Part shown: positions 23,890-49,140 of the stretch, piece after piece | Position numbering within the stretch: position 1 is the first letter of the stretch | Layout: each line of letters starts with the position of its first letter | Assembly: GCA_943357245.1 (NCBI GenBank) | Contig: CALRGH010000001.1 | Location: forward strand, 13,456-77,455 | DNA from: Candidatus Nomurabacteria bacterium | GTDB taxonomy: Bacteria > Patescibacteriota > Minisyncoccia > Phycocordibacterales > UBA9973 | DNA: 64,000 bases | Direction: 5' to 3' | Program-made: the position numbers and the translations under genes | The notes under the pieces: generated by a model | Told to the model about the DNA's origin: nothing | Databases searched by the model: none | The model's input: the letters and a program-made list of their open reading frames with translations, nothing else

Positions 23890-26800
23890 ATGTCACCCGA
23901 AGTACCCGACGCAGATAAAATAGAGAAAAAAATATTCAAAGCGGCGATCATCAACACCGATGAACTTGTGAAATCCCAAGCACGGGATATTGGTGATGCA
24001 AAAATGACAGAATCGAAAGAAGACCGCGACGCAAATTGGTTTACCAGAAACGCAAAACGAATTTGGAAACACAATATTGCCCAAGAGTGGTATCGCCAGC
24101 GAGAAATTTCTCGAGCAAAGAAAGATATTTTAGAGAAACACGACCTTTATGTGGGAGAAAAAGGATTTAATCCGGATACCAACACTCCAGATGGGCAATC
24201 ACACACTGAGGCAATGCAAGCAATCATTGATCGTTTTACGAGCGAATACGAAGATGAAGAAGTGTTACATACAGGAGAAACGCGGAAGACGATCGAAGGC
24301 GCTGCAATCAACACAAATATCAAAGAGCTCATCAAGCGGTATGTAAAAGATAATCTGCCGGATGAAGAATTTGATGAACAGAAAAAACGTATCCTTTCTA
24401 AATATGACAAGAGAACTGCATCAGACAAAAGTTTGTACGCGGATAATTTACTTGCTATCGCCAATGAAGTAAAGAGTGCTGTCGCGCACGGGACAAAACT
24501 TGCAGAGCTTGATTTTGATGTTGAGATCACCCTCGGTAACGCGCGTGAAAGTTTGAGCACGGAGGCACATAACACCTTTGATAAAGCCATCGATGGATTG
24601 CAAAATACCAAAATCGGTAAATACCTCGCGAACGAACCAGCAGTGCTTGGTATCTTGGCTGGCGCATATGAATTAGGAAGAAACAGTATTCAAAGAACTG
24701 TTCGTTCAAAAGGGCTCCAGTGGGCAACGTTCGGCGGTGCAGCGCTTTTAGCTGGTGGTATCAGTGCAGTAAAAGAGCGCGCACGATTTACCCGAGAGCG
24801 CGCGCAGCATCAACGTGAACAAACAAAAGGCATGGAGTTCAAAGAACCTGATATGAAGCGCCGCAAAGAAATGGGTGAAACAGATTACGAAACAAAAAAG
24901 GCAGCAAGTATCATTGAGGATTTGGGCGCCGATCTTGCAAAAATGCATGAGGGAGACGCAACGAATGAAGAAATAAATGCGATCGTAGACCGCCTTGCTG
25001 AGCTTGAATCACGCATCAAGTTGAACGATCAAGAGAAAATTGATCTCATTACCTACGATAAATTTAATACCGTTGAAAAAGATCGCACCGCAATGGATCT
25101 TGGGCGCGCAGAGCTCAAAGTAGCGCTTCGTCGTGCAGGGCGGGAGTTTCAAAATGGAGAAGAAAAAGTTGATTTTGATACTGCATTACGCCTCCTTACC
25201 GAATCCAAAAAAACAGAGTTGCTTGGGGGCGAATCAGGTATTACTGCCCAGAACAAAGAATTTGCAAAACTAAGAAATAGCCGCGCATGGAAAGCCTTCG
25301 CGACAACGACATTGGCAAGTGCGACGGTTGGTGTCCTCTTCCAAGAAGGAAAAGCACTCCTTGATGCTTCACAAGACGGCATTATCGAAGGCACCATCAA
25401 ACATTTTAATAATAAAGAAGATTTGGTTAAACATGGTACTGGTCTTGAAGCACTGCGACGGTGGTTTACCGGGGATCATGCGATGATGCCACACAACGAC
25501 GCATCACTCTTGCATGAAGGTGTCGTTGCTGGCGGACACTTGCAATTGCCAAAAGGAATTAATTTGAAACCCGCCGATGGTACTAATAATTTTGATATTG
25601 TGCGCGATAACGGCAATGTTGTTGTTTCCGACGTGCATATGGAATTCGATGAGAACGGAGACCTCTCTGACGAAACAAAACAAGCGCTCGCGAAGAGTGG
25701 TGTCATAAGCGAGTTTGGAATAGTTGGAGAAAAAACAACAGAGACAGTTACCGAACCAGCGCAAGACTATCTAGACAACCACGCTGGTCTGACACAAAAA
25801 ATTCATCGCGAGCTCTGGTACGACAATGACACCCCACACCCATTTGATGGGAATGAATTGCGCACCGATTGGGGCGGCGACCGCAATACCGGTATCGATG
25901 CAAATGGCAATTATGTATTCAATGTGTCTCGTATGACAGAGGATGGCTCATTCCACAGTGCAAGCAGTGTTGATGCAAAAGAGGCAATAGGAAAAGGAAA
26001 TCTCAAAATGCTCTTTTCCCTCTCCCGCGATACGCAGCACCAAGTATTCGAAGTACAGATTGATGCAGATGGTAATGCGATCATTGATCCAAAAAGCGAA
26101 CTTGGCAAACTACTGTTTGAAAACCAAAACGGCCATGCGGTATTCACCGGCAAATTCGCCGAAGTAGCACAATCTATGGGCACGGCAGAAGACGGCGGAG
26201 AAAATGTACGTATTTTGGGTACGCATGTAGGCTTGGGTAAAGACACTGTTACCGACATCGTACCTACAGATACAACAGTCGGAAAAGTACTGCTCGATAT
26301 TCCAGAAGAAACCACGTACGACACATTAGTCGTTCCAATAGTAGGTCCTCGACGACCTCTTGAACGCGGCAAGTATGCAAAAGACGCAACCGTAGAATCG
26401 AATCGCGCACGAGAAGCTCAACACCGAGCTGAAGATGCAGAAAATAGAGCGGCAGCGGGCACCGCTGTAGCCGCGGAAACAGCATATATTGCAGGAGGTG
26501 TGTCCTACTCGCCAGATCGAGGAGTTACGGGTTTTGGAGAATATACCATAGGGATGAATACAGATCATGTGTATGGATTTGTGGGTCTTGATAGAAAAAC
26601 GACAGATGCAAGATTAAAGGACGTCAAAAAATACACCCACCCAGAAGTAATCGTGTTCGAGGAAGATACAACAAAACGAGACGCTGCGCTCAAACAAATA
26701 CAAGATCTCAAGAGATGGTATCCGAGAGTCAAATTCACCTATATTGCCCTTCCGACAAATATGGATAAAGTAGAGCCAAAGGAAGTAAAAAAATATACAG

Positions 26801-27075
26801 AGCAACGTTTCAAATATATTCTTGAATCTTCATCGCTTGATAAAAAAGTACGTCATGAACTTTACGTCGAGGAATCACTTGAAAAAGAATTGCTTGCTGA
26901 CGTTGAAAGTGCAGAATGGGAAGCATATGTACGGAGTAATTACAAAGCATCCGACGAGCGACTCTATACGATTGCATGGAAAGAAAAAAATAAACAATTA
27001 CTTTCCCACAAAGAACGTATTATTTACGAAGACAACAAAAAGGCCGTTGATAAGTTAATCGGGAAAATAAAATAA
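23890..27075 (+). CDS. large hypothetical protein (1061 aa), charged/coiled-coil-rich with two internal hydrophobic segments
   Basis: Long uninterrupted ORF. No Walker motifs or other recognisable catalytic signatures. Hydrophobic segments LQWATFGGAALLAGGISAV and AFATTTLASATVGVLF. Confidence 0.6.
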   Translation: MSPEVPDADKIEKKIFKAAIINTDELVKSQARDIGDAKMTESKEDRDANWFTRNAKRIWKHNIAQEWYRQREISRAKKDILEKHDLYVGEKGFNPDTNTPDGQSHTEAMQAIIDRFTSEYEDEEVLHTGETRKTIEGAAINTNIKELIKRYVKDNLPDEEFDEQKKRILSKYDKRTASDKSLYADNLLAIANEVKSAVAHGTKLAELDFDVEITLGNARESLSTEAHNTFDKAIDGLQNTKIGKYLANEPAVLGILAGAYELGRNSIQRTVRSKGLQWATFGGAALLAGGISAVKERARFTRERAQHQREQTKGMEFKEPDMKRRKEMGETDYETKKAASIIEDLGADLAKMHEGDATNEEINAIVDRLAELESRIKLNDQEKIDLITYDKFNTVEKDRTAMDLGRAELKVALRRAGREFQNGEEKVDFDTALRLLTESKKTELLGGESGITAQNKEFAKLRNSRAWKAFATTTLASATVGVLFQEGKALLDASQDGIIEGTIKHFNNKEDLVKHGTGLEALRRWFTGDHAMMPHNDASLLHEGVVAGGHLQLPKGINLKPADGTNNFDIVRDNGNVVVSDVHMEFDENGDLSDETKQALAKSGVISEFGIVGEKTTETVTEPAQDYLDNHAGLTQKIHRELWYDNDTPHPFDGNELRTDWGGDRNTGIDANGNYVFNVSRMTEDGSFHSASSVDAKEAIGKGNLKMLFSLSRDTQHQVFEVQIDADGNAIIDPKSELGKLLFENQNGHAVFTGKFAEVAQSMGTAEDGGENVRILGTHVGLGKDTVTDIVPTDTTVGKVLLDIPEETTYDTLVVPIVGPRRPLERGKYAKDATVESNRAREAQHRAEDAENRAAAGTAVAAETAYIAGGVSYSPDRGVTGFGEYTIGMNTDHVYGFVGLDRKTTDARLKDVKKYTHPEVIVFEEDTTKRDAALKQIQDLKRWYPRVKFTYIALPTNMDKVEPKEVKKYTEQRFKYILESSSLDKKVRHELYVEESLEKELLADVESAEWEAYVRSNYKASDERLYTIAWKEKNKQLLSHKERIIYEDNKKAVDKLIGKIK

Positions 27076-40700: not shown

Positions 40701-42743
40701 TTATATATCAATCTCCGCTAACTTTGCATGTGTTTGGATAAATGATTTGCGAGGCGCAACATCCGAACCCATCAACATGTCAAACACTTTATTTGCTTCT
40801 TCGGCATCATCGACATTCACTTGTTTCAAAATACGTCGAGCAGGATCCATTGTTGTTTCCCATAATTCTTCTGCGTTCATTTCTCCGAGACCTTTATAGC
40901 GTTGGAGGTGGAATTTACTTGCCTTCACCTCTTTCTTTGCATCTGTTTCTTCATCAGTTACCACATCATCTCCACCCTCACTTTCGTCTGTCTCTTCGAT
41001 TTCTGCATTGTCGCCAGTAATCGCCATTTTTTCTTCATCAGTATACGCATACCACAGTTCTTTACCTCGCTTTATTTTATAAAGTGGTGGTTGCGCAATA
41101 TAAATATGTCCGGCATCAATGAGTGGTTTGAAGTGACGGTACAAGAGCGTCAAAATAAGCGTACGGATGTGTGCGCCGTCCACGTCGGCATCGGTTGCGA
41201 TAATGATTTTGTGATAACGCAATTTTGAAATATCAAACGTATCACCGATTGCGGTTCCCATCGCAATAACCAAGTTTTTAATTTGTTCAGAGGCGAGCAT
41301 TTTATCAAGACGCGCACGTTCGATATTTAGGATTTTGCCACGCAGTGGCAAAATCGCCTGCGTGCGACGATCGCGTCCCATTTTTGCCGTACCTCCAGCG
41401 GAATCTCCTTCCACAATAAAAATTTCAGATTCTTCTGCACTCTTTGAACCACAGTCTGCAAGCTTGCCCGGAAGCGTCATACCTTCAAGCGCACCTTTGC
41501 GGAGCACGGAATCCTTTGCTGCTTTTGCTGCTTTACGCGCGCGAACCGCCAAGATCACTTTGTTAATAATCATCTTTGCTTCGTCTGGATGCTCTTCGAG
41601 AAATGCTTCAAATGCTTCCCCGAAGACCGTTGTGGTTGCGCCTTGTGCTTCAGGAGAACCCAATTTCCCTTTTGTCTGTCCTTCAAATTGAATTTCACGA
41701 AGTTTTACCGAGACGACTGCGGTCAATCCTTCAAGGACATCATCGCCCGTAAATGCGCCATCAGATTCTTTGATGAAATTATTTTTTTTGCCGTAGGTAT
41801 TCAAAAGACGCGTAAGTGCTGTTTTAAAACCAATCACATGAGTACCTCCTTCTTGCGTATAAATATTGTTCGCAAATGGCAAGATGCGACAAGAAATGTC
41901 ATCGATATATTGGAGCGCAATTTCAACGCCAACATCATTCAATTCTTTGTCCACATAAAAAATAGTATCCTGTACTGTTTTTTGGTGCAGGTTTTGGTGG
42001 CGAATAAGCGATACCAATCCTCCTTCGAAATAAAAACTGTGCGATGGCGCTTCAATGCCTTGGTCTTTCAAATACACTTCATCATCAAGATTTATTTTAC
42101 CTTCGTAATTACGTGCATCGATAACCGTGATTAATAATCCTTTGACTAAATATGCTTGCTGACGCATGCGACTGACAATAATATTCCATTCAAATTCTGT
42201 TGTTGTTTTAAAAATTTCTTTATCAGGCTGGAAGGTCACAATGGTGCCGTGCAATTTCGAAGAACCGACTTTTTTGACGGCTGCTTTTTTCTTACCACAC
42301 GCATATTCTTGCATGTGCTTGCCACCATCACGATGCACTTCTACTTTTGTGTATGTGGAAAGTGCATTCACTACCGACGCACCAACGCCGTGCAAACCGC
42401 CAGAAACTTTGTAGCCGTCACCACCAAATTTACCACCGGCGTGGAGCGTCGTCATGACTGTTTCAAGTGCGGATACTTTTGTTTTGGAATGAATGTCCAC
42501 TGGAATACCGCGACCATTATCCGCAACGCGCACATGATTGTTTGGTAGGAGTGCAATCTCAACACGGTTTGCAAATCCGCCCATCGCTTCATCGCGAGAG
42601 TTATCAAAAATTTCCCATATCAAATGATGCAAGCCTTCAGAGCCTGTTCCTCCAATATACATACCGGGACGTTTTCGTACCGGTTCGAGTCCTTCAAGGA
42701 CTGAAATATCTTCTGCGGAATATGATCCTTTCTTATCTACCAT
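40701..42743 (-). CDS. gyrB: DNA gyrase subunit B (type IIA topoisomerase ATPase subunit)
   Basis: GHKL ATPase motifs EGLHHLIWEIFDNSRDEAMGG and GLHGVGASVVNALS. Toprim EGDSAGG. C-terminal tail. 680 aa. ParE cannot be excluded, but gyrB is more likely. Confidence 0.85.
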   Translation of the reverse strand: MVDKKGSYSAEDISVLEGLEPVRKRPGMYIGGTGSEGLHHLIWEIFDNSRDEAMGGFANRVEIALLPNNHVRVADNGRGIPVDIHSKTKVSALETVMTTLHAGGKFGGDGYKVSGGLHGVGASVVNALSTYTKVEVHRDGGKHMQEYACGKKKAAVKKVGSSKLHGTIVTFQPDKEIFKTTTEFEWNIIVSRMRQQAYLVKGLLITVIDARNYEGKINLDDEVYLKDQGIEAPSHSFYFEGGLVSLIRHQNLHQKTVQDTIFYVDKELNDVGVEIALQYIDDISCRILPFANNIYTQEGGTHVIGFKTALTRLLNTYGKKNNFIKESDGAFTGDDVLEGLTAVVSVKLREIQFEGQTKGKLGSPEAQGATTTVFGEAFEAFLEEHPDEAKMIINKVILAVRARKAAKAAKDSVLRKGALEGMTLPGKLADCGSKSAEESEIFIVEGDSAGGTAKMGRDRRTQAILPLRGKILNIERARLDKMLASEQIKNLVIAMGTAIGDTFDISKLRYHKIIIATDADVDGAHIRTLILTLLYRHFKPLIDAGHIYIAQPPLYKIKRGKELWYAYTDEEKMAITGDNAEIEETDESEGGDDVVTDEETDAKKEVKASKFHLQRYKGLGEMNAEELWETTMDPARRILKQVNVDDAEEANKVFDMLMGSDVAPRKSFIQTHAKLAEIDI

Positions 42744-42840: not shown

Positions 42841-45800
42841 TTAAGGTGTATCTGATGGTGGAGTATCAGTTGGAGGAGTTTGCTCTGCTGGAGGTGTCTC
42901 GCTTGGTGGATTCTCATCAGTTGGAGGGATATCGCTCGATGGGGTGTCTTGTGGAGGAGTGCCGGTTGGAGGAGTTTCTGATGGAGGCACTTCTTCGGTT
43001 GGCGGTGTCTCTCCTCCTCCAGATGGCGGAAGTGTCTGTCCTGCGTTTTCAATAAGCGCACGAAGTTGGTCTTTATTGATACACACATCTTCAACACACA
43101 ATTCTTTTGTCGTAATTTTATCGGAGAAAATATTTACCAGTCCATTCGTTGTAGATGCGAGCCATGCGCGAAGTGCACCAACCAGAGAATTATCTTCATT
43201 CGTAAGGTCTGCAATATTTGTAATCTTTATATCAAGTTGTTTTACTGCTGCCATCAAAATACCATTCACCGACACTTGATCAATCACATTGCCCCACATG
43301 AACGCCGGATTAACTTCGTCAGCGATATAGCCGATGCGTACTTTTGCAAGCGGAGAATCAGTGCCGTATCCTTCCACTTCATTTCGGTATCGGAATGTAT
43401 GTAATGGTGCATCCAAAATTAACTGCAACGCATTTGTATAATCAGTATAGTCTTCGATATTTTGTTTTGTATCACGAGTAGATGTTTGTGTACCGATAAC
43501 GGTACCTGCCGTATCATTTGCATTTGTTGGTGCTGCAGTATGGATGCGCATATTGCCCGAGTTGTCTTGCCACACGTATCCTGCGGTACCAGATTTTTTC
43601 TGGAAGTTGATCGACCCTGCACCAGTGTTTGTCGCATTTGTATTTCTACCAAGGGTAATATAATTTCCAGCTGCACCATCTCCTAGATCACGATTAGCAC
43701 CATTTAAATGTCCCTCTGCGGTAACACGCCATTTTTCAGTAAGTGTCTGGAGTGTTGTTCCTGATGCCCCTGCATCAGATGTTAGAAATGCAATAGCTCC
43801 TCCGACAGCATTCCCTGTTGCCTTACCACTAGCAAGATTAAGACCTGCGCCGTATTGGTTTGTTCCTGATCCACCACTTGCATTAATAATTATACCTTGA
43901 GGACTCGCCGATGTCACTCCGTTACCAAAGTATGCATCAATTGCAGTTCCACTTCCTGTACTTACCACCCATTGATCGTTCGCAGTTGCAACCGCAGTAG
44001 TACCACTACCAATAACAATCGATCGAGTAATACTATTAGAAGAAACATCTGCGCGGTCACCAATAAGAATATTATTACCACCCGTGGTAATAGTTGCACC
44101 TGCACTGTATCCAAGAAACGTATTTCCTGTAGCAGTTGTGTTCGCAACACCAGCTCCTTTACCAAAAAATGAGTTTGTTCCCCCTGTACTTACAAGTCCT
44201 GCATTCATACCAACAAATGTATTATCACCTGCTGTTGTGTTCGCATCTCCAGCAAGATAGCCGATAAAGGTATTATTGTTTCCTTCTGTGTTCAACCGAC
44301 CAGCACTTTTGCCGAAAAATGCATTGCCAGTACCAGTACTGTTTGTTTTACCCGCAATATCCCCAACAAATGTATTGCCGTCTGCGGTTGTATTTCCCAT
44401 CCCCGCACCCCCCCCAATAAATACATTACTATCTCCTGTTGTATTAACAGAACCCGCTGTGCTTCCTATAAATATATTTTCCGTACCTGTTGTATTAACC
44501 TCTCCAGCTCTATATCCAATAGCAGTATTATATGATGCAGTGGTAATAGCAGCTCCTGCTGATTTCCCAAGCAGTATATTACTTACACCCGTAGTGATTG
44601 AGTCACCAGTATTATCTCCAAATAAAATATTATCAACACCACCACCTGCGCCATTAAGCGCTGCACCTGCGCCAATAGTCCCTGTAAACACGTTATTATA
44701 AGCGTCTGCAGTCACATCTCCACTACCACTTACACCAACAGCCCCCCAGCTAACACCACTATATACTTGAAATTCACCATCATCTGTATTATAAATAAGC
44801 TCTCCTGCTACTGGAGTTACAATATCGTCACGTCTTGTCGTATTCATACGTGGCAGAAGCACTCCGGAAGTCGATGAAGTAATATCAAGCACTGCTTCTG
44901 GGGATGCTATACCGATGCCGAGTGACTCTGCTCCATCATCCCAAAAAAAGTTACCGTTTTTCGCGATTGTCGTTCCATTAGAAAAGAGTACAGAACCTGT
45001 GTCAAGGGATGGTAACGTTAATTTTCCATTGAATGTATTCCAATCAGTGGACGTGAGAAATCCTTTTGCACCAGTTGCCGCCGCTTGGCCGTTTGTATAA
45101 TCAATAGCAATAAGACCACTTGTTGCATTAAAGTCAGCAGCGGTAAAAGTTGCCGCACCTTTTGTGGAGCCGTCAGCTGCGGCATTCGTAATTGAAATAG
45201 TACCCGAACTATTAGAAAGTGGCGAAGAGAATGTAAGCGAACTCTGCTTACTGTTAAACGTCGTCCAATCGGTTGCTGAAAGATAGCCGGAGACACTTCC
45301 TGTTGCTTGTGAAATTGTCATGATGCCAGTCGAGTTGCTATATGAAAGTGGTATGCTACCTGCGACACTAATAGCACTTCGTGCACGAGCATCAGTGAAA
45401 TACTGATTCGAACCTTCGGTAATATTCGATGTGGTGAGTGTCACCGAACCAGTTGAACCATTGACACTCGTAACGGATGCACCGTTTAGAATTTCCACCC
45501 AATTGGCAAGAACTGTCGCATCGGTGTCTGCAAGTACGTATGTTTTGCTTTGATCAGTACGAATAGCAAGGTCGCCTTGAGTTGCAGAAAGTGCGAGCAT
45601 GGCGACTTGTGATGCGACAACGTACGTATCTGAAAATGAAAGCGACGCAAGTTGAGATGTCGGCACTTTGCCGTTGCCATCAAGTGTCGCAATCCCATCC
45701 GCAACACCTTTCTGTAAACTAATTCGCGCATCGGCACGACTATTTGTATAGTAGAGATTCGTACCTTCATCAATTTCAGTCGTTGAGAGATTAATCGCGC

Positions 45801-47124
45801 CAACTTCGCCGTTAACGGAAAGCACCGAATCTGTAGGGGTAAGTATTTGGACCCAGTTGGAGACGTTTGAATAATCAACAGCTGAGAGTACATAGGTTGT
45901 GTTCGTGTCAGTACGAATTGCAAGATCCCCAATACCAGCGCTTGAAAGCGCAAGCATCGCGGCTTGTGATGCAACGACGAAGATATCACTAATTGCAAGT
46001 GATGAAAGTTGCGACATTGGCACTTTACCGCTCGAATCAAGTGTTGCAACACCACTTACCGCGCCCATGTAGGAAGTCGGTACAAAATCAAGCGTCTGCC
46101 ACGAAAGCGTACCTGATCCGTTGTTTTTTAAATACGATGATGACGCGCCTTGTGATGACGGAAACGAGTACACGACATTATTTAATTTCACAATATTTCC
46201 ACTTGAATCTACTTGAAATTTATCCCCAGAACCAACTGTGAAAAGCGATGCAGGTGACGTATCTCCAACACCAACATATCCTGTCGAAGAAATGCGCATT
46301 CGTTCATTTGCATTTGCATCACCACCAGTGAAAAACTTGAGTGATTCTGTTGCTCCGGCAGTTCCTATTACCAAATCAGAATCACTTGTATATAAATATG
46401 CAGTGTGTGGACCTCCATAAATAAGCGATAAATCATTGTACCCAGAACTATTGATACCAAGATCAACGTAATATGAATCATCATCACCATCATCAGCGGT
46501 TGCAACGAAATCAGACGATGCACTGTCGCCGTCATTCAAGTTTTGAATGTTTACTTGCAAATAACTATCCGTGTTGCCAGAAAAATTTCCCACCACGTTT
46601 GGAAAAATCGTACCGCCGCCGGCTGCGAATGATCGCGCTGCAGTGACATTGCCTTCACTATCAATATTGAGCTTGCTTGCGCCGTCAACTTGAAAATCGG
46701 CGAGGTAATGCGTGCCGGAACCTGTCGCACCTTCGGTGACATTAACGAGTAAACCAATGTACGCAGCGGTGCCAGATTGTGAGACTGTCGGATGAATATA
46801 GTGACCGTACGCAGAACCGGAACTTCCGGATACCGTAGACGTAAACGTTTTTATTCCTGCAAAACTTTGTGCAGATGTATTAACAAGACCTGTGTCTGTA
46901 ATTGACGCATCAGGAATTTCAACAAAACATTCTGCGTCTCCGGGCGCACATGTTGGATCTAATGTTTCATTTTGAAGATAGGGAGATGTAGGCGGTGTTG
47001 CAAAAGCAACAATTCCTCCAGAAAACGCAACAAGAAAAAGCACCGATAAAATTAGTGTTCGATTTGTCCCTTGTTTTATTTTTTTGAGAACAGATTCTTT
47101 AATTGTGCGAATGAGTCTACGCAC
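42841..47124 (-). CDS. giant secreted tail-fibre-like surface protein (1427 aa): signal anchor, duplicated phage-tail-fibre repeats, NxTxG repeat array, peptidase-S74 intramolecular chaperone domain, Pro/Thr-rich C-terminal tail
   Basis: N-terminal anchor TLILSVLFLVAFSGGIVAFA. Two roughly 95-aa internal copies (ATLDSSGKVPMSQLSSLAISDIFVVASQAAMLALS...NWVQI and ATLDGNGKVPTSQLASLSFSDTYVVASQVAMLALS...NWVEI). More than 12 tandem units of the NTTGxxNxFxGxxAG type. C-terminal STRDTKQNIEDY...HTFRYRNE...IGYIADEV matches the S74 chaperone motifs (SDxRLKxNI, GFIAQEV). The final 60 aa are PPT/PPS repeats. Confidence 0.8.
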   Translation of the reverse strand: MRRLIRTIKESVLKKIKQGTNRTLILSVLFLVAFSGGIVAFATPPTSPYLQNETLDPTCAPGDAECFVEIPDASITDTGLVNTSAQSFAGIKTFTSTVSGSSGSAYGHYIHPTVSQSGTAAYIGLLVNVTEGATGSGTHYLADFQVDGASKLNIDSEGNVTAARSFAAGGGTIFPNVVGNFSGNTDSYLQVNIQNLNDGDSASSDFVATADDGDDDSYYVDLGINSSGYNDLSLIYGGPHTAYLYTSDSDLVIGTAGATESLKFFTGGDANANERMRISSTGYVGVGDTSPASLFTVGSGDKFQVDSSGNIVKLNNVVYSFPSSQGASSSYLKNNGSGTLSWQTLDFVPTSYMGAVSGVATLDSSGKVPMSQLSSLAISDIFVVASQAAMLALSSAGIGDLAIRTDTNTTYVLSAVDYSNVSNWVQILTPTDSVLSVNGEVGAINLSTTEIDEGTNLYYTNSRADARISLQKGVADGIATLDGNGKVPTSQLASLSFSDTYVVASQVAMLALSATQGDLAIRTDQSKTYVLADTDATVLANWVEILNGASVTSVNGSTGSVTLTTSNITEGSNQYFTDARARSAISVAGSIPLSYSNSTGIMTISQATGSVSGYLSATDWTTFNSKQSSLTFSSPLSNSSGTISITNAAADGSTKGAATFTAADFNATSGLIAIDYTNGQAAATGAKGFLTSTDWNTFNGKLTLPSLDTGSVLFSNGTTIAKNGNFFWDDGAESLGIGIASPEAVLDITSSTSGVLLPRMNTTRRDDIVTPVAGELIYNTDDGEFQVYSGVSWGAVGVSGSGDVTADAYNNVFTGTIGAGAALNGAGGGVDNILFGDNTGDSITTGVSNILLGKSAGAAITTASYNTAIGYRAGEVNTTGTENIFIGSTAGSVNTTGDSNVFIGGGAGMGNTTADGNTFVGDIAGKTNSTGTGNAFFGKSAGRLNTEGNNNTFIGYLAGDANTTAGDNTFVGMNAGLVSTGGTNSFFGKGAGVANTTATGNTFLGYSAGATITTGGNNILIGDRADVSSNSITRSIVIGSGTTAVATANDQWVVSTGSGTAIDAYFGNGVTSASPQGIIINASGGSGTNQYGAGLNLASGKATGNAVGGAIAFLTSDAGASGTTLQTLTEKWRVTAEGHLNGANRDLGDGAAGNYITLGRNTNATNTGAGSINFQKKSGTAGYVWQDNSGNMRIHTAAPTNANDTAGTVIGTQTSTRDTKQNIEDYTDYTNALQLILDAPLHTFRYRNEVEGYGTDSPLAKVRIGYIADEVNPAFMWGNVIDQVSVNGILMAAVKQLDIKITNIADLTNEDNSLVGALRAWLASTTNGLVNIFSDKITTKELCVEDVCINKDQLRALIENAGQTLPPSGGGETPPTEEVPPSETPPTGTPPQDTPSSDIPPTDENPPSETPPAEQTPPTDTPPSDTP

Positions 47125-47195
47125 TTAAAAAGTATACCACTTTTTAAGTGCTAAAAAGGTATAAAGATGTTGATAACGTTGGCAAGGATAGTTAT

Positions 47196-47226
47196 CAAGT
47201 TTATAAAGTTATAAGGTTATAAAGTT
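47196..47226. repeat. left inverted repeat (CAAGTTTATAAAGTTATAAGGTTATAAAGTT) of the four-helix-bundle gene cassette
   Basis: Its partner at 47564-47593 reads CAAGTTATAAAGTTTGTAAAGTTATAAAGG in reverse complement. Confidence 0.7.
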
Positions 47227-47561
47227 TTAATAAATCCTGAGATTATCCTAGATATTTCAGTTGAAAGAATTTCAAGTTTAGCAGCTTGGTCTTTTCGAAA
47301 ATATCGCAACTCAACACCGAGAATAAGCATTGAACGGACTTCCCCACATGACCCCTTTGCAATATATAAAAAATTCTTAAATTCTTTATTTGTTTGACGT
47401 TCAAATCCTTCCGCAATATTGTTCATAATAGAAACAGATGCTCGTTCAATCTGATTTTTAAAAGAGAAATCTTTGCAAACTGAAACATCCTTATAAATCT
47501 GTAACGTTAATTCTTTTGCTTTTTGCCATGCAATAATCTCTTCAAACCTCGTAATTTTCAT
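47217..47561 (-). CDS. four-helix-bundle protein of the 23S-rRNA-intervening-sequence / DGR-Avd-like family
   Basis: 114 aa: EEIIAWQKAKELTLQIYK...NQIERASVSIMNNIAEGFERQTNKEFKNFLYIAKGSCGEVRSMLILG is the characteristic pattern of this family. Confidence 0.8.
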   Translation of the reverse strand: MKITRFEEIIAWQKAKELTLQIYKDVSVCKDFSFKNQIERASVSIMNNIAEGFERQTNKEFKNFLYIAKGSCGEVRSMLILGVELRYFRKDQAAKLEILSTEISRIISGFIKTL

Positions 47562-47563
47562 GT

Positions 47564-47593
47564 CCTTTATAACTTTACAAACTTTATAACTTG
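47564..47593. repeat. right inverted repeat of the four-helix-bundle gene cassette
   Basis: See the entry for 47196-47226. Confidence 0.7.
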
Positions 47594-47599
47594 ATGAAC

Positions 47600-48739
47600 T
47601 TAGCGGACAGTGGCCTTAACCACGTCCGCTGTTTCCTGCTCTAATTTTTTATGAATCGCATTCACTTCCACATCCGTCAGCGTGCGATCAAGTGCACGGT
47701 ACGTGATTCGATATGCATAACTTTTTTTACCAGCACCAAATTTGTCTGCATTTTCGTATTCATCGACGAGCGCCATTTCTTCTGCCATATCACCAACCAC
47801 ATCGCGCACCACGTCAAAATAATTATTCGGCATAAATATTGCGCTGTCGACAATGAAAGAAATGTCGCGCACGATTGCTGGGTACTTACTTACCTCTTTA
47901 AACTTAGTGCCGAGTTTTAATTGCTTTTTTACACGTTCGTCATCACTCCAAAGCAATCGGATATCCGGAAGTTCGGTGCTGATGATTGCTAATCGTTCAA
48001 GTCCAAGTCCAAACGCCCAACCCGTCCATTTTGAGGAATCAACACCAAGTTTATCAAGCACACTTCCCTTCACGACACCTGCACCATTAACTTCAACCCA
48101 CGCACCATTAATTTCCACCTCCATTTCAAGTGACGGATCCGTATACGGAAACGTATCGGGATTAAAACGATATTTAATATCATTACCGAACACTGCCTTT
48201 GCCGTATCTTCCAATACTTTTTCTAAATCAGCGCGCGTGATTTCTCCTTGTTCTTTTGGTATTAAATACCAACCATCGAGCTGATGAAAGACATTCATGT
48301 GACGGCGATCTATTTCATCTTTGCGATACACTTTGCCAAATGCGAACGCGCCAACAGGCTCGTTGTTTGCGATGCGTGCCTTGATTTTTTCATCGTGCAA
48401 ATAGTAATACCACATCACCGTCATTTGCGTACGCAAAATATGATTGTCATCTGCATAGTACGTATCAGATTTTGAACGTGCCGGATGATCCATCGGAAAA
48501 TCAAATAAATCAAATCCAATGTCAGTTGAAATAATTTGTGGCACTTCGATAGTATCAAATGTTGTAAATGCGGGTAGCGCCAAAATTCGCTTCACCATCT
48601 CTCCAATCGGACTGCCGTCTGTCCGCGACAGATCCGGCATGTCCAAATATCGCTTCATGCGAAGCGCTTCTGCGTCTGTCCGCTTGTCCAATTCCGCGAG
48701 TAATCGTGTTTCTTCAGCTGTATCTACCTTAATTTCCAT
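47600..48739 (-). CDS. pheS: phenylalanyl-tRNA synthetase alpha-type catalytic domain fused to a C-terminal FDX-ACB anticodon-binding domain (monomeric, mitochondrial-type architecture)
   Basis: Class II motifs HPARS...FRNE-like and GWAFGLGLERLAIISTELPDIRL. The C-terminal roughly 100 aa (SKYPAIVRDISFIVDSAIF...KKSYAYRITYRALDRTLTDVEVNAIHKKL) match the FDX-ACB domain that normally sits at the PheT C-terminus. The long PheS N-terminal coiled coil is absent. The start is taken at the ATG at 48739 (the ORF-track start at 48748 is TTG). Confidence 0.75.
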   Translation of the reverse strand: MEIKVDTAEETRLLAELDKRTDAEALRMKRYLDMPDLSRTDGSPIGEMVKRILALPAFTTFDTIEVPQIISTDIGFDLFDFPMDHPARSKSDTYYADDNHILRTQMTVMWYYYLHDEKIKARIANNEPVGAFAFGKVYRKDEIDRRHMNVFHQLDGWYLIPKEQGEITRADLEKVLEDTAKAVFGNDIKYRFNPDTFPYTDPSLEMEVEINGAWVEVNGAGVVKGSVLDKLGVDSSKWTGWAFGLGLERLAIISTELPDIRLLWSDDERVKKQLKLGTKFKEVSKYPAIVRDISFIVDSAIFMPNNYFDVVRDVVGDMAEEMALVDEYENADKFGAGKKSYAYRITYRALDRTLTDVEVNAIHKKLEQETADVVKATVR

Positions 48740-48777
48740 ATTGGGCAACTATAGCAAAAATATGAGGTATTTTCCAC

Positions 48778-48812
48778 TCTGTGTCACCCTGAATTTATTT
48801 CAGGGTCCAGGC
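48778..48812. repeat. left terminal inverted repeat / hairpin of the GIY-YIG cassette (TCTGTGTCACCCTGAATTTATTTCAGGGTCCAGGC)
   Basis: The reverse complement of 49106-49140 is CTTGTGTCATCCTGAATTTATTTCAGGATCCAGGC. There are three mismatches, two of which are compensatory within the internal hairpin. Confidence 0.8.
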
Positions 48813-49096
48813 TAAATTTCTAAGTCCTCCCACTGAGGATTATTTGCTTCAATAAAATTTAATTTCCATTTTCTATGCCAATTTTTTAATTGTTTTTCTC
48901 GGACAATAGCAATTTGCACATCATTTGTCTCTTCAAAATAGACAAGTTTGTGCACATTATATTTTTCAGTAAATCCTTCGACAAGATTATTTTTATGTTC
49001 AGATATTCTTCGCCGTAAATTATTTGTTACGCCAATATAAATAGTGCCATTTCTATCTGTTGCTAAAATATATACATAATATTTCTTGTATAGCAT
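48812..49096 (-). CDS. GIY-YIG nuclease-family protein (94 aa)
   Basis: YVYILATDRNGTIYIGVTNNLRRRISEH...KLVYFE is the GIY-YIG motif set (GIY..YIG..R..E). Confidence 0.8.
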   Translation of the reverse strand: MLYKKYYVYILATDRNGTIYIGVTNNLRRRISEHKNNLVEGFTEKYNVHKLVYFEETNDVQIAIVREKQLKNWHRKWKLNFIEANNPQWEDLEI

Positions 49097-49105
49097 AAGT
49101 ATTCC

Positions 49106-49140
49106 GCCTGGATCCTGAAATAAATTCAGGATGACACAAG
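49106..49140. repeat. right terminal inverted repeat / hairpin of the GIY-YIG cassette
   Basis: See the entry for 48778-48812. Confidence 0.8.

What the first reader, a model, noticed from the sequence alone, without database searches (positions are those of the whole stretch)
47600..48739. Monomeric, mitochondrial-type phenylalanyl-tRNA synthetase architecture (PheS catalytic core fused to FDX-ACB anticodon-binding domain)
Bacterial PheRS is normally an (alpha-beta)2 heterotetramer, with the FDX-ACB domain at the C-terminus of PheT. Here a single 380-aa protein carries the class II catalytic core plus a C-terminal FDX-ACB domain. The PheS N-terminal coiled coil is missing and no pheT is adjacent. 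That is the domain layout of organellar monomeric PheRS, which is rare in bacteria. It would also imply loss of the PheT editing domain.
Basis: partly seen in the sequence, partly recalled or inferred. Interest (0 to 1): 0.55.

Follow-up and report, generated by a model that had tools for sequence, protein, structure and literature searches.

The report
Single-chain mitochondrial-type PheRS in a CPR bacterium
This ultra-small (CPR/Patescibacteria) bacterium encodes a one-piece phenylalanyl-tRNA synthetase built like the mitochondrial enzyme, a form shared by at least 575 related species that has no proofreading domain and that standard annotation and marker-gene sets fail to recognise.

Summary
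ORF 47600..48739 (-) encodes a 379-aa protein with a PheS-type class II catalytic core (PF01409) fused to a C-terminal FDX-ACB anticodon-binding domain (PF03147). It has no PheS N-terminal domain. The best match among solved structures is human mitochondrial PheRS (E 3e-59). A confident AlphaFold model (pLDDT 93) superposes on it over its full length (TM 0.77).

The window is a Parcubacteria/Paceibacteria-type CPR chromosome and holds no pheT or second pheS. The architecture is not a rarity within this group. At least 575 species-representative genomes carry an orthologue (63-75% identity among the 80 best), usually next to gyrB, and 1.23 Mb of their flanks contain no PheT editing, B5 or B6/7 domains.

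Some Paceibacteria keep canonical pheS-pheT, and one fully tabulated genome of that kind lacks the monomeric form. A published CPR marker matrix shows genomes with FDX-ACB but without B5 or the PheS N-domain.

Most likely this is the cell's only PheRS, working without post-transfer editing. Not shown: whole-genome absence of pheT in this organism, the monomeric state, and enzymatic activity. Nine full-text searches found no published description.

Verdict: a new bacterial member of the known mitochondrial-type PheRS kind, of moderate to high interest.

The parts
47600..48739 (-). Gene for the single-chain mitochondrial-type PheRS (379 aa plus a stop codon at 47600-47602)
   Evidence: ORF listing. 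Pfam finds both domains. Solved-structure search. Homologues cover 100% of the length. Coordinates re-translated.
48614..48739 (-). Short N-terminal helical segment (residues 1-42). It stands in place of the long PheS coiled-coil arm, and PF02912 is not detected.
   Evidence: Pfam. The AlphaFold model has helices at residues 8-19 and 23-33. The segment aligns only to the tail of the E. coli PheS N-terminal region.
47921..48613 (-). Class II PheS-type catalytic core (residues 43-273)
   Evidence: PF01409 at E 2.5e-53. 32% identity to E. coli PheS residues 81-327. Foldseek matches to bacterial PheS chains cover only this half.
48272..48337 (-). Motif 2, GKVYRKDEIDRRHMNVFHQLDG (residues 135-156). 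Arg139 is conserved. Asp155 replaces the Glu found in E. coli PheS and in mitochondrial PheRS.
   Evidence: Alignments. Translation.
48131..48151 (-). FPYTDPS (residues 197-203), the Phe-pocket motif. Thr200 corresponds to E. coli T251. Tyr199 replaces the second Phe of FPFTEPS.
   Evidence: Alignments. Translation.
47987..48022 (-). Motif 3, GWAFGLGLERLA (residues 240-251), identical to the human FARS2 motif. Ala242 corresponds to E. coli A294. Arg249 is conserved.
   Evidence: Alignments. Translation.
47891..47920 (-). Ten-residue linker, LKLGTKFKEV (residues 274-283), joining the exact equivalent of the PheS C-terminus to the start of the PheT B8 domain
   Evidence: Alignment with the E. 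coli PheS C-terminus (..RFLKQFK*) and with E. coli PheT residues from about 690.
47603..47890 (-). FDX-ACB (PheT B8-type) anticodon-binding domain (residues 284-379), containing the RDISF and KKSYAYRITYR motifs
   Evidence: PF03147 at E 3.3e-20. Matches to the C-termini of PheT chains in the PDB. E. coli PheT residues 618-794 match here by tblastn.
48748..48776 (-). Promoter-like site (TGGAAA, 17-nt spacer, TG-TATAGT) that ends 9 nt before the ATG, which could mean a very short leader or a leaderless mRNA. This is a consensus match only.
   Evidence: Pattern scan. Sequence.
40701..42743 (-). gyrB, the conserved syntenic neighbour of the monomeric PheRS gene. In this window it is separated from the PheRS gene by two inserted genes.
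   Evidence: Pfam. gyrB is adjacent to the orthologue in about 60 of 80 related loci. One canonical Paceibacteria MAG has the order pheS-pheT-gyrB.

Best explanation
The gene encodes this bacterium's housekeeping phenylalanyl-tRNA synthetase in a single-chain, mitochondrial-type format (the 'PheRS-M' kind). The PheS-like class II core activates phenylalanine with ATP and transfers it to tRNA-Phe. The fused FDX-ACB domain, the equivalent of PheT domain B8, reads the GAA anticodon. By analogy with human mitochondrial PheRS, it would swing from a closed to an open position on tRNA binding. No beta subunit is needed, so the B3/B4 post-transfer editing site is absent and accuracy depends on the active site alone. 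In this CPR sub-radiation the single gene has taken the place of the canonical pheS-pheT pair. Shown here: the architecture, the fold, conservation of the catalytic and specificity residues, wide and conserved distribution, housekeeping synteny, and absence of PheT-specific domains around the gene. Inferred: enzymatic activity, Phe specificity, the monomeric state, being the only PheRS in the cell, and lack of editing.
For: Architecture and fold:
- Pfam finds PF01409 plus PF03147.
- The best matches among solved structures are human mitochondrial PheRS chains at E about 3e-59, against about 1e-34 for bacterial PheS.
- The AlphaFold model has pLDDT 93.3 and pTM 0.88. It superposes on the closed form of human mitochondrial PheRS (5MGH/3CMQ) at TM 0.77 and rmsd 3.0-3.5 A over about 388 columns, whereas PheS chains cover only half of it.

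Active site:
- Motif 2 Arg139, motif 3 Arg249, and the equivalents of the E. coli specificity residues T251 and A294 (Thr200, Ala242) are invariant in the clade.

Housekeeping character:
- The top 120 homologue clusters are all about 378-382 aa with both domains, at 66-94% identity.
- At least 575 GTDB species representatives carry it.
- There is one copy per locus, next to gyrB in about 60 of 80 loci. In L003 the neighbours include gyrB, greA, a class II D/K/N-type tRNA synthetase and serS.

Replacement of pheST:
- In 1.23 Mb of flanks, E. coli PheT matches only its B2 and B8 segments, never B3/4, B5 or B6/7.
- The fully tabulated Paceibacteria genome PMX_810_sub has canonical pheT and pheS and no second PF01409 or PF03147 gene.
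- PMX.50 has the order pheS-pheT-gyrB, the position the monomeric gene occupies elsewhere.
- In a published CPR marker matrix, 25 of the 27 genomes that lack B5 also lack the PheS N-domain (Fisher p about 4e-6). Eight genomes have FDX-ACB without either, and three of those have 14 of 14 control markers.

Family assignment:
- The clade's 50%-identity representative P0121 passes the curated pheS_mito cut-off (264.3 against 258.35).
Against: - Only 64 kb of this genome could be read, so a canonical pheS-pheT elsewhere is not excluded.
- Canonical pheST does occur within the same class.
- The protein itself falls just below the pheS_mito cut-off (245.9 against 258.35). It scores almost the same against NCBIfam 'PheS-related mystery ligase SrmL' (244.6, cut-off 300), a family of unknown function.
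- Two pocket positions differ from every characterised PheRS compared here: Asp155 for the motif-2 Glu, and Tyr199 in FPYTDPS.
- The marker matrix is binary, anonymised and built from draft genomes. Its FDX-ACB model missed 15 of the 57 B5-positive genomes.
- Direct adjacency of pheST to gyrB was seen in only one canonical MAG. In PMX_810_sub the genes lie about 29 genes apart.
- There are no biochemical data.
Confidence: 0.75

Rival explanations
1. It is an accessory paralogue, a PheS-related ligase of unknown function like NCBIfam SrmL. On this reading it coexists with a canonical pheS-pheT elsewhere in the genome and does not supply Phe-tRNA for translation.
For: The score against SrmL (244.6) nearly ties the score against pheS_mito (245.9), and both are below their cut-offs. 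The nearest non-clade relative P0123, from an Oligoflexia MAG, sits among non-housekeeping genes and scores better on SrmL than on pheS_mito. Clade-specific Asp155 and Tyr199 lie in the substrate pocket. Canonical pheST exists in some Paceibacteria.
Against: The SrmL cut-off of 300 is clearly not met by this protein or by any of the ten relatives scanned. The family is near-universal, single-copy and 63-94% conserved across phylum-level CPR lineages with tiny genomes. Its synteny is with housekeeping genes. A canonical-PheST genome lacks it. CPR genomes exist with FDX-ACB but without B5 or the PheS N-domain. The E. coli Phe-specificity positions are conserved.
Confidence: 0.12
2. It is the housekeeping PheRS but does not act alone. 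It would work with a separate small tRNA-binding subunit (the stand-alone PheT-B2-like OB-fold protein seen in relatives), or as a homodimer like most class II synthetases, so 'monomeric' would be wrong.
For: In 13 of 80 related loci a gene of about 140 aa (PF01588, 33-42% identical to E. coli PheT residues 36-152) lies directly upstream of the orthologue. It forms a conserved family: 581 hits, and the top 120 are all stand-alone. Most class II synthetases are dimers (general knowledge).
Against: No such gene is in this 64-kb window, nor next to the orthologue in the other 67 loci, including the closest relatives L005-L008. The B2 domain is already missing from the canonical PheT of other CPR bacteria (PMC5370408; domain lists). 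The full-length model matches the closed form of the monomeric human enzyme.
Confidence: 0.1
3. It is eukaryotic (organellar) sequence that entered by contamination or mis-binning, or a very recent transfer from a eukaryote, and so is not a native CPR gene.
For: The closest characterised relatives are mitochondrial. Several database relatives are exon fragments on eukaryotic contigs.
Against: The gene lies in a contiguous bacterial chromosome segment with rpoB/C, dnaE, gyrB, thrS, dnaG and a sigma-70 gene. It has conserved bacterial synteny in 80 related genomes. It lacks the mitochondrial insertion after motif 2 and has no presequence. It shares a clade-specific insertion of about 10 aa and Asp155 with other bacterial relatives.
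Confidence: 0.02

Closest known systems
Mitochondrial phenylalanyl-tRNA synthetase (human FARS2, PDB 3CMQ/3TUP; yeast MSF1; AARS Online family PheRS-M; NCBIfam TIGR00469)
   Same: Both are a single chain with the PheS catalytic core fused to a PheT-B8-type FDX-ACB domain. The fusion junction aligns and motif 3 is identical (GWAFGLGLERLA). Neither has a coiled-coil arm, a beta subunit or an editing domain. Identity is about 30% in the structural alignment and HMMER gives E 3e-59. The model superposes over its full length on the closed form.
   Different: This protein is encoded on a bacterial chromosome and has no presequence. It lacks the roughly 30-40-residue insertion after motif 2 and has its own insertion of about 10 residues before motif 2. 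It has Asp155 instead of Glu and Tyr199 instead of Phe. At 379 aa it is shorter than the roughly 415-aa human enzyme. Its score is just under the TIGR00469 cut-off.
Canonical bacterial (alpha-beta)2 PheRS (PheS/PheT, e.g. E. coli 3PCO, T. thermophilus 1PYS)
   Same: The catalytic core is 32% identical to E. coli PheS and has the same motifs 1-3 and specificity positions. The C-terminal domain is homologous to PheT domain B8.
   Different: It has no PheS N-terminal domain. It has no PheT B1-B7, and therefore no B3/B4 editing site, no B5 and no B6/7. It is one polypeptide of 379 aa instead of 327 + 795 aa. The TIGR00468 and TIGR00472 cut-offs are not met.
NCBIfam NF051887 'PheS-related mystery ligase SrmL'
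   Same: The overall length and two-part layout are similar: the model aligns to residues 58-368 at 244.6 bits.
   Different: The curated cut-off of 300 is not met by this protein or by any of the ten relatives scanned. The function and genomic context of SrmL are unknown to me, and no paper mentions it.
Editing-deficient PheRS of reduced genomes (yeast mitochondrial PheRS; Mycoplasma PheRS). This comparison is from my own knowledge of the literature and was not checked here.
   Same: Loss or decay of Tyr-tRNA-Phe proofreading in a streamlined genetic system.
   Different: Mycoplasma keeps the heterotetramer with a degenerate editing site, whereas here the whole beta subunit appears to be gone.

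Membership tests
Mitochondrial-type single-chain PheRS (PheRS-M / TIGR00469 pheS_mito) | PheS-type class II catalytic core with motifs 1-3 | tested here: met
   PF01409 at E 2.5e-53. Motif 2 and motif 3 arginines are conserved.
Mitochondrial-type single-chain PheRS (PheRS-M / TIGR00469 pheS_mito) | FDX-ACB (PheT B8-like) anticodon-binding domain fused to the C-terminus of the same chain | tested here: met
   PF03147 at residues 284-379, E 3.3e-20. The junction aligns with human FARS2.
Mitochondrial-type single-chain PheRS (PheRS-M / TIGR00469 pheS_mito) | Full-length fold and domain arrangement as in solved mitochondrial PheRS | tested here: met
   AlphaFold model with pLDDT 93. TM 0.77 and rmsd about 3 A to 5MGH/3CMQ over about 388 columns.
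Mitochondrial-type single-chain PheRS (PheRS-M / TIGR00469 pheS_mito) | Score at or above the curated NCBIfam cut-off (258.35 bits) | tested here: not met
   245.9 bits for this protein. The clade's representative P0121 does pass at 264.3, so the clade straddles the threshold.
Mitochondrial-type single-chain PheRS (PheRS-M / TIGR00469 pheS_mito) | Active as a monomer without a beta subunit, charging tRNA-Phe | not testable with these tools
   Needs purified protein. The only indirect evidence is the absence of PheT-specific domains near the gene in 80 genomes.
Mitochondrial-type single-chain PheRS (PheRS-M / TIGR00469 pheS_mito) | Eukaryotic nuclear gene with an organellar product (as the TIGR model was defined) | tested here: not met
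   The gene is on a bacterial CPR chromosome with conserved bacterial synteny and no presequence.
Canonical bacterial PheS (TIGR00468) | Curated cut-off (237.45 bits), N-terminal PF02912 domain, and a partner pheT | tested here: not met
   159.1 bits. PF02912 is not detected. No pheT is in the window or in the flanks of 80 orthologues.
Bacterial PheT (TIGR00472) | B1-B8 multidomain beta subunit including B3/4 editing, B5 and B6/7 | tested here: not met
   Only the last 108 model positions (691-798, the B8 domain) match, at 58.2 bits against a cut-off of 402.65.
SrmL, PheS-related mystery ligase (NF051887) | Curated cut-off (300 bits) | tested here: not met
   244.6 bits. The ten relatives scanned score 194-274 bits.
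SrmL, PheS-related mystery ligase (NF051887) | Coexistence with a canonical PheRS in the same genome (implied by the name 'mystery ligase') | not testable with these tools
   The whole genome is not available. Indirect evidence points the other way.

The most novel reading that the evidence does not exclude
A whole bacterial sub-radiation (Parcubacteria-type CPR, plus a code-25 lineage and some other bacteria and phage-like contigs) uses a single-chain PheRS that shares one fusion event with the mitochondrial enzyme. On this reading the long-unexplained mitochondrial PheRS is not a eukaryotic invention. It descends from, or was exchanged with, a bacterial lineage of monomeric PheRS, and hundreds of bacterial species translate without any PheRS proofreading.
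Probability: 0.2. Interest if true: 0.8.

Novelty: new member of a known kind. Interest (0 to 1): 0.55.

Why it matters
- Textbooks describe bacterial PheRS as an (alpha-beta)2 heterotetramer and treat the monomeric form as organellar. Here the monomeric format appears to be the standard housekeeping enzyme of at least 575 bacterial species. At 379 aa it replaces about 1,120 aa of alpha plus beta.
- It implies that these cells lack the PheT editing site. This makes CPR bacteria a natural test case for how much translational proofreading a free-standing cell can give up.
- It supplies bacterial relatives that share the fusion junction with FARS2/MSF1. The origin of mitochondrial PheRS therefore becomes testable by phylogeny.
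- There is a practical consequence. NCBI sources name many of these proteins 'hypothetical protein'. The protein fails both the TIGR00468 and the TIGR00472 cut-offs, and to my knowledge both models are GTDB bac120 markers. Genome completeness and aaRS inventories of these lineages are therefore systematically under-called, while KO-based pipelines label the protein 'alpha chain'.

Tried and rejected
- Nine full-text literature searches found no description of a bacterial or CPR monomeric PheRS, and nothing on SrmL. PMC8975779 turned out to be about ArgRS.
- I tried to obtain a canonical CPR PheS/PheT sequence for a co-occurrence test. The core-only hits P0239 and P0240 proved to be exon fragments of eukaryotic mitochondrial PheRS, on contigs with Tra1 and mitochondrial-carrier genes. 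The B2-like bait returned only stand-alone proteins in its top 120.
Genome-wide absence of pheT in an orthologue-bearing genome was therefore not tested directly.
- The supplements of PMC12281837 and PMC9530719 contained nothing useful. The PMC9763046 table was cut when stored.
- The AFDB50 fold library was unavailable.
- The idea that the stand-alone B2-like gene belongs to this locus was rejected. It is absent from the window.
- SrmL membership was rejected on the curated cut-off.
Full report
**Observation**

The ORF at 47600..48739 on the minus strand is real and intact. It has an ATG start, 379 codons and a stop, and there is an alternative in-frame TTG at 48748.

Pfam finds PF01409, the class II PheS-type core, at residues 43-273 (E 2.5e-53). 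It finds PF03147, FDX-ACB, at residues 284-379 (E 3.3e-20). The PheS N-terminal domain PF02912 is not detected.

tblastn with E. coli PheS and PheT (sequences) against the whole 64-kb window hits only this ORF. PheT matches only through its C-terminal B8 segment. The stated architecture and the absence of an adjacent pheT are therefore confirmed.

**Organism**

Neighbouring genes are rpoB, rpoC, dnaE, gyrB, thrS, dnaG, a sigma-70 factor, RNase R and an SMC-like ATPase. G+C content is about 41%.

The closest homologues of the PheRS carry names such as Candidatus Pacebacteria, Paceibacterota, Kaiserbacteria, Liptonbacteria and Parcubacteria group. The window is therefore a chromosomal segment of a Parcubacteria/Paceibacteria-type CPR (Patescibacteria) bacterium.

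The exact source record could not be named. Only short Logan contigs from run ERR5863119 were returned.

**What the protein is**

- Against solved structures, the best sequence matches are human mitochondrial PheRS chains (E about 3e-59, two aligned stretches). Bacterial PheS chains follow at about 1e-34, and PheT chains match only their last roughly 95 residues.
- NCBIfam gives a near-tie between TIGR00469 pheS_mito (245.9 bits, cut-off 258.35) and NF051887 'PheS-related mystery ligase SrmL' (244.6, cut-off 300). Canonical pheS (159.1 against 237.45) and pheT (58.2 against 402.65) are clearly not met.
- An AlphaFold2 model built from 34 family sequences is confident (mean pLDDT 93.3, pTM 0.88).
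- Foldseek against the PDB places the closed form of human mitochondrial PheRS first (5MGH, 3CMQ: TM 0.77, rmsd 3.0-3.5 A, about 388 aligned columns). The open, tRNA-bound form 3TUP scores lower (TM 0.59). Bacterial PheS chains cover only the catalytic half (TMq about 0.54).

**Anatomy**

An alignment with E. coli PheS, the E. coli PheT C-terminus, human FARS2 fragments and relatives shows the following.

- The catalytic part runs to the exact equivalent of the E. coli PheS C-terminus (...DLRFLKQFK*).
- A linker of about 10 residues follows (LKLGTKFKEV).
- The chain then continues with the start of PheT domain B8 (E. coli ...SRFPANRRDIAVVV; here SKYPAIVRDISFIV).
- The junction region also aligns with human FARS2, which favours a single origin of the fusion.
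- Motif 2 Arg139 and motif 3 Arg249 are invariant in the clade. So are Thr200 and Ala242, the equivalents of the E. coli specificity residues T251 and A294. That T251 and A294 set specificity is from my own knowledge.

Two features mark the clade.

- Asp155 stands where E. coli PheS and mitochondrial PheRS have Glu (FHQxEG).
- Tyr199 stands in FPYTDPS where the others have FPFT(E/H)PS.

The clade also has an insertion of about 10 residues before motif 2 and lacks the large mitochondrial insertion after motif 2. The N-terminal 42 residues form two short helices in place of the long PheS coiled-coil arm.

**Distribution**

- In the 5.8-billion-protein collection, the top 120 hit clusters are all 374-396 aa, have both domains, and are 66-94% identical.
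- In the library clustered at 50% identity, the clade collapses to essentially one full-length representative, P0121 (63% identity). 221 representatives reach E 1e-30 or better.
- P0121 passes the pheS_mito cut-off at 264.3 bits. None of the ten relatives scanned reaches the SrmL cut-off.
The best 80 are 63-75% identical. Their names span Paceibacterota/Minisyncoccia, Doudna-, Yanofsky-, Nomura-, Zambryski- and Giovannonibacteria and Spechtbacterales.

The architecture is therefore the norm in a large CPR block and not a rarity there.

More distant relatives with the same two domains include the following.

- P0123, from an Oligoflexia MAG, lies among non-housekeeping genes.
- P0128 comes from a low-GC lineage. 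Its 13 in-frame TGA codons sit at conserved Gly positions, which indicates genetic code 25.
- P0146 lies on a 160-kb contig that looks like a jumbo phage.
- Many relatives are eukaryotic mitochondrial enzymes.

**Is it the only PheRS?**

This could not be tested directly, because only 64 kb of the genome are available and no tool reads whole genomes. The indirect evidence is as follows.

1. In the 80 related loci (1.23 Mb), E. coli PheT matches only two things. Its B8 segment matches inside the orthologue. Its B2 segment (residues 36-152) matches a small gene directly upstream in 13 loci. B3/B4, B5 and B6/7 are never matched, and each locus has exactly one PheS-like gene.
2. gyrB lies next to the orthologue in about 60 of 80 loci. 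It is downstream on the same strand within 3 kb in 41 of the 67 loci with enough sequence. In L003 the neighbours are gyrB, greA, a class II D/K/N-type tRNA synthetase and serS.
3. Canonical genes do exist within the class.
   - The uncut whole-genome table of the cultured symbiont PMX_810_sub lists adjacent pheT (B3/4, CLM, B5, FDX-ACB) and pheS (PF01409 + PF02912). PF01409 and PF03147 each occur only once and PF01588 not at all, so that genome has no monomeric form (PMC9600506).
   - The MAG PMX.50 has the order pheS-pheT-gyrB, the position held elsewhere by the monomeric gene (PMC9763046).
   - In PMX_810_sub, gyrB lies about 29 genes from pheTS, so the same-locus argument rests on one MAG.
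4. A CPR single-copy-domain matrix (supplement of PMC8672522, first 84 genomes) gives genome-level support.
   - B5 is present in 57 genomes and absent in 27.
   - 25 of the 27 that lack B5 also lack Phe_tRNA-synt_N (Fisher p 3.7e-6), so the two canonical-specific domains go missing together.
   - Eight genomes have FDX-ACB without either domain. Three of them carry 14 of 14 control markers. This is the signature expected of genomes with only the monomeric enzyme.
   - Caveats: the matrix is binary, anonymised and built from draft genomes, and its FDX-ACB model missed 15 of the 57 B5-positive genomes.

Taken together, I put the probability that this is the cell's functional PheRS, and most likely its only one, at about 0.75.

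**Mechanism**

This is inferred from homology to human mitochondrial PheRS and to bacterial PheRS.

- The core binds Phe and ATP, forms Phe-AMP and transfers Phe to tRNA-Phe.
- The FDX-ACB domain recognises the GAA anticodon and probably swings from the closed state, which the model adopts, to an open state on tRNA binding.
- There is no B3/B4 site, so no cis-editing of Tyr-tRNA-Phe.
- Asp155 and Tyr199 may tune the pocket. This is speculation.

**Rivals**

- An SrmL-like accessory paralogue that coexists with canonical PheST (about 0.12).
- A housekeeping enzyme that needs a partner, such as the stand-alone B2-like protein, or that dimerises (about 0.10). The B2-like gene is absent from this window and from the closest relatives.
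- Eukaryotic contamination or a recent transfer from a eukaryote (about 0.02). Synteny contradicts this.

**Comparison with known families and novelty**

The protein works like the mitochondrial-type PheRS and is built like it. It meets the structural and architectural criteria of that family. It misses the curated NCBIfam score by 12 bits and is not organellar. It is neither a canonical PheS nor a PheT, and it does not qualify as SrmL.

Nine literature searches found no description of such a bacterial enzyme. The AARS Online and related classification papers list PheRS-M with only the human structure as exemplar and do not mention CPR. Database sources call these proteins 'PheRS alpha chain' or 'hypothetical protein'.

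I classify it as a new (bacterial) member of a known kind and score its interest at 0.55.

Noticed in passing
window 48780-49138 (ORF 48812..49096, minus strand): The 94-aa GIY-YIG ORF directly upstream of the PheRS gene is bracketed by 38-nt inverted repeats (48780-48817 and 49101-49138, 89% complementary), and each arm contains a palindrome. The ORF is absent from the same position in all 80 related loci, so it looks like a small inserted cassette.
   Followed up: partly
window 47190-47602 (ORF 47217..47561, minus strand): The 114-aa PF05635 (23S_rRNA_IVP, four-helix-bundle) ORF directly downstream of the PheRS gene is also bracketed by AT-rich inverted repeats of about 25-31 nt (47190-47224 and 47565-47602). 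A homologue is present in only 2 of the 80 related loci.
   Followed up: partly
window 42841..47124 (minus strand): A 1427-aa ORF with an N-terminal hydrophobic segment, long low-complexity Gly/Thr/Ser/Ala/Asn-rich regions and a Pro-rich C-terminal tail (PPSETPP-like repeats) sits between the PheRS gene and gyrB. In most relatives these two genes are adjacent, so this looks like a lineage-specific surface protein inserted into a conserved gene pair.
   Followed up: no
L003 9454..9900 (the same gene in L010), and 12 further loci among L013-L083: A conserved stand-alone protein of about 140 aa lies directly upstream of the monomeric PheRS gene in 13 of 80 relatives, mostly Doudnabacteria-type. 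It is PF01588 tRNA_bind and 33-42% identical to E. coli PheT residues 36-152 (domain B2). The database holds 581 homologues, the top 120 are all stand-alone, and JGI names them 'PheRS beta chain'. It may be a trans-acting tRNA-binding helper or a relic of pheT. Canonical PheT of other CPR bacteria lacks B2.
   Followed up: partly
L086 9463..10833 (protein P0128): This is a 456-aa relative with the same two domains from a 32.5% GC lineage. It contains 13 in-frame TGA codons that the gene caller read as Trp. They fall at conserved Gly positions, for example in motif 3, which indicates genetic code 25 (Gracilibacteria/Absconditabacteria). Its neighbours include an F-type ATPase operon.
   Followed up: partly
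L088 8001..9065 (protein P0146): A 354-aa monomeric PheRS-like protein (pheS_mito 264 bits) lies on a 160-kb contig of co-directional, mostly unannotated genes that include a dCMP deaminase, a dNMP kinase and an IF1/eIF-1a-like gene. The contig looks like a jumbo phage or large virus that encodes its own single-chain PheRS.
   Followed up: no
window 23890..27075 (plus strand): A 1061-aa ORF with no Pfam match at E 1e-5 lies among housekeeping genes.
   Followed up: no
window 48748-48776 (minus strand): An extended -10-like promoter match (TG-TATAGT) ends only 9 nt upstream of the PheRS start codon. This suggests a very short leader or a leaderless transcript. It is a consensus match only.
   Followed up: no
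record titles of L005, L008, L013 and others: Many species-representative MAGs that carry the Parcubacteria-type gene, including the closest relatives at 72-75% identity, are titled 'uncultured Candidatus Saccharibacteria bacterium'. This appears to be a generic or incorrect taxonomic label for those assemblies.
   Followed up: no
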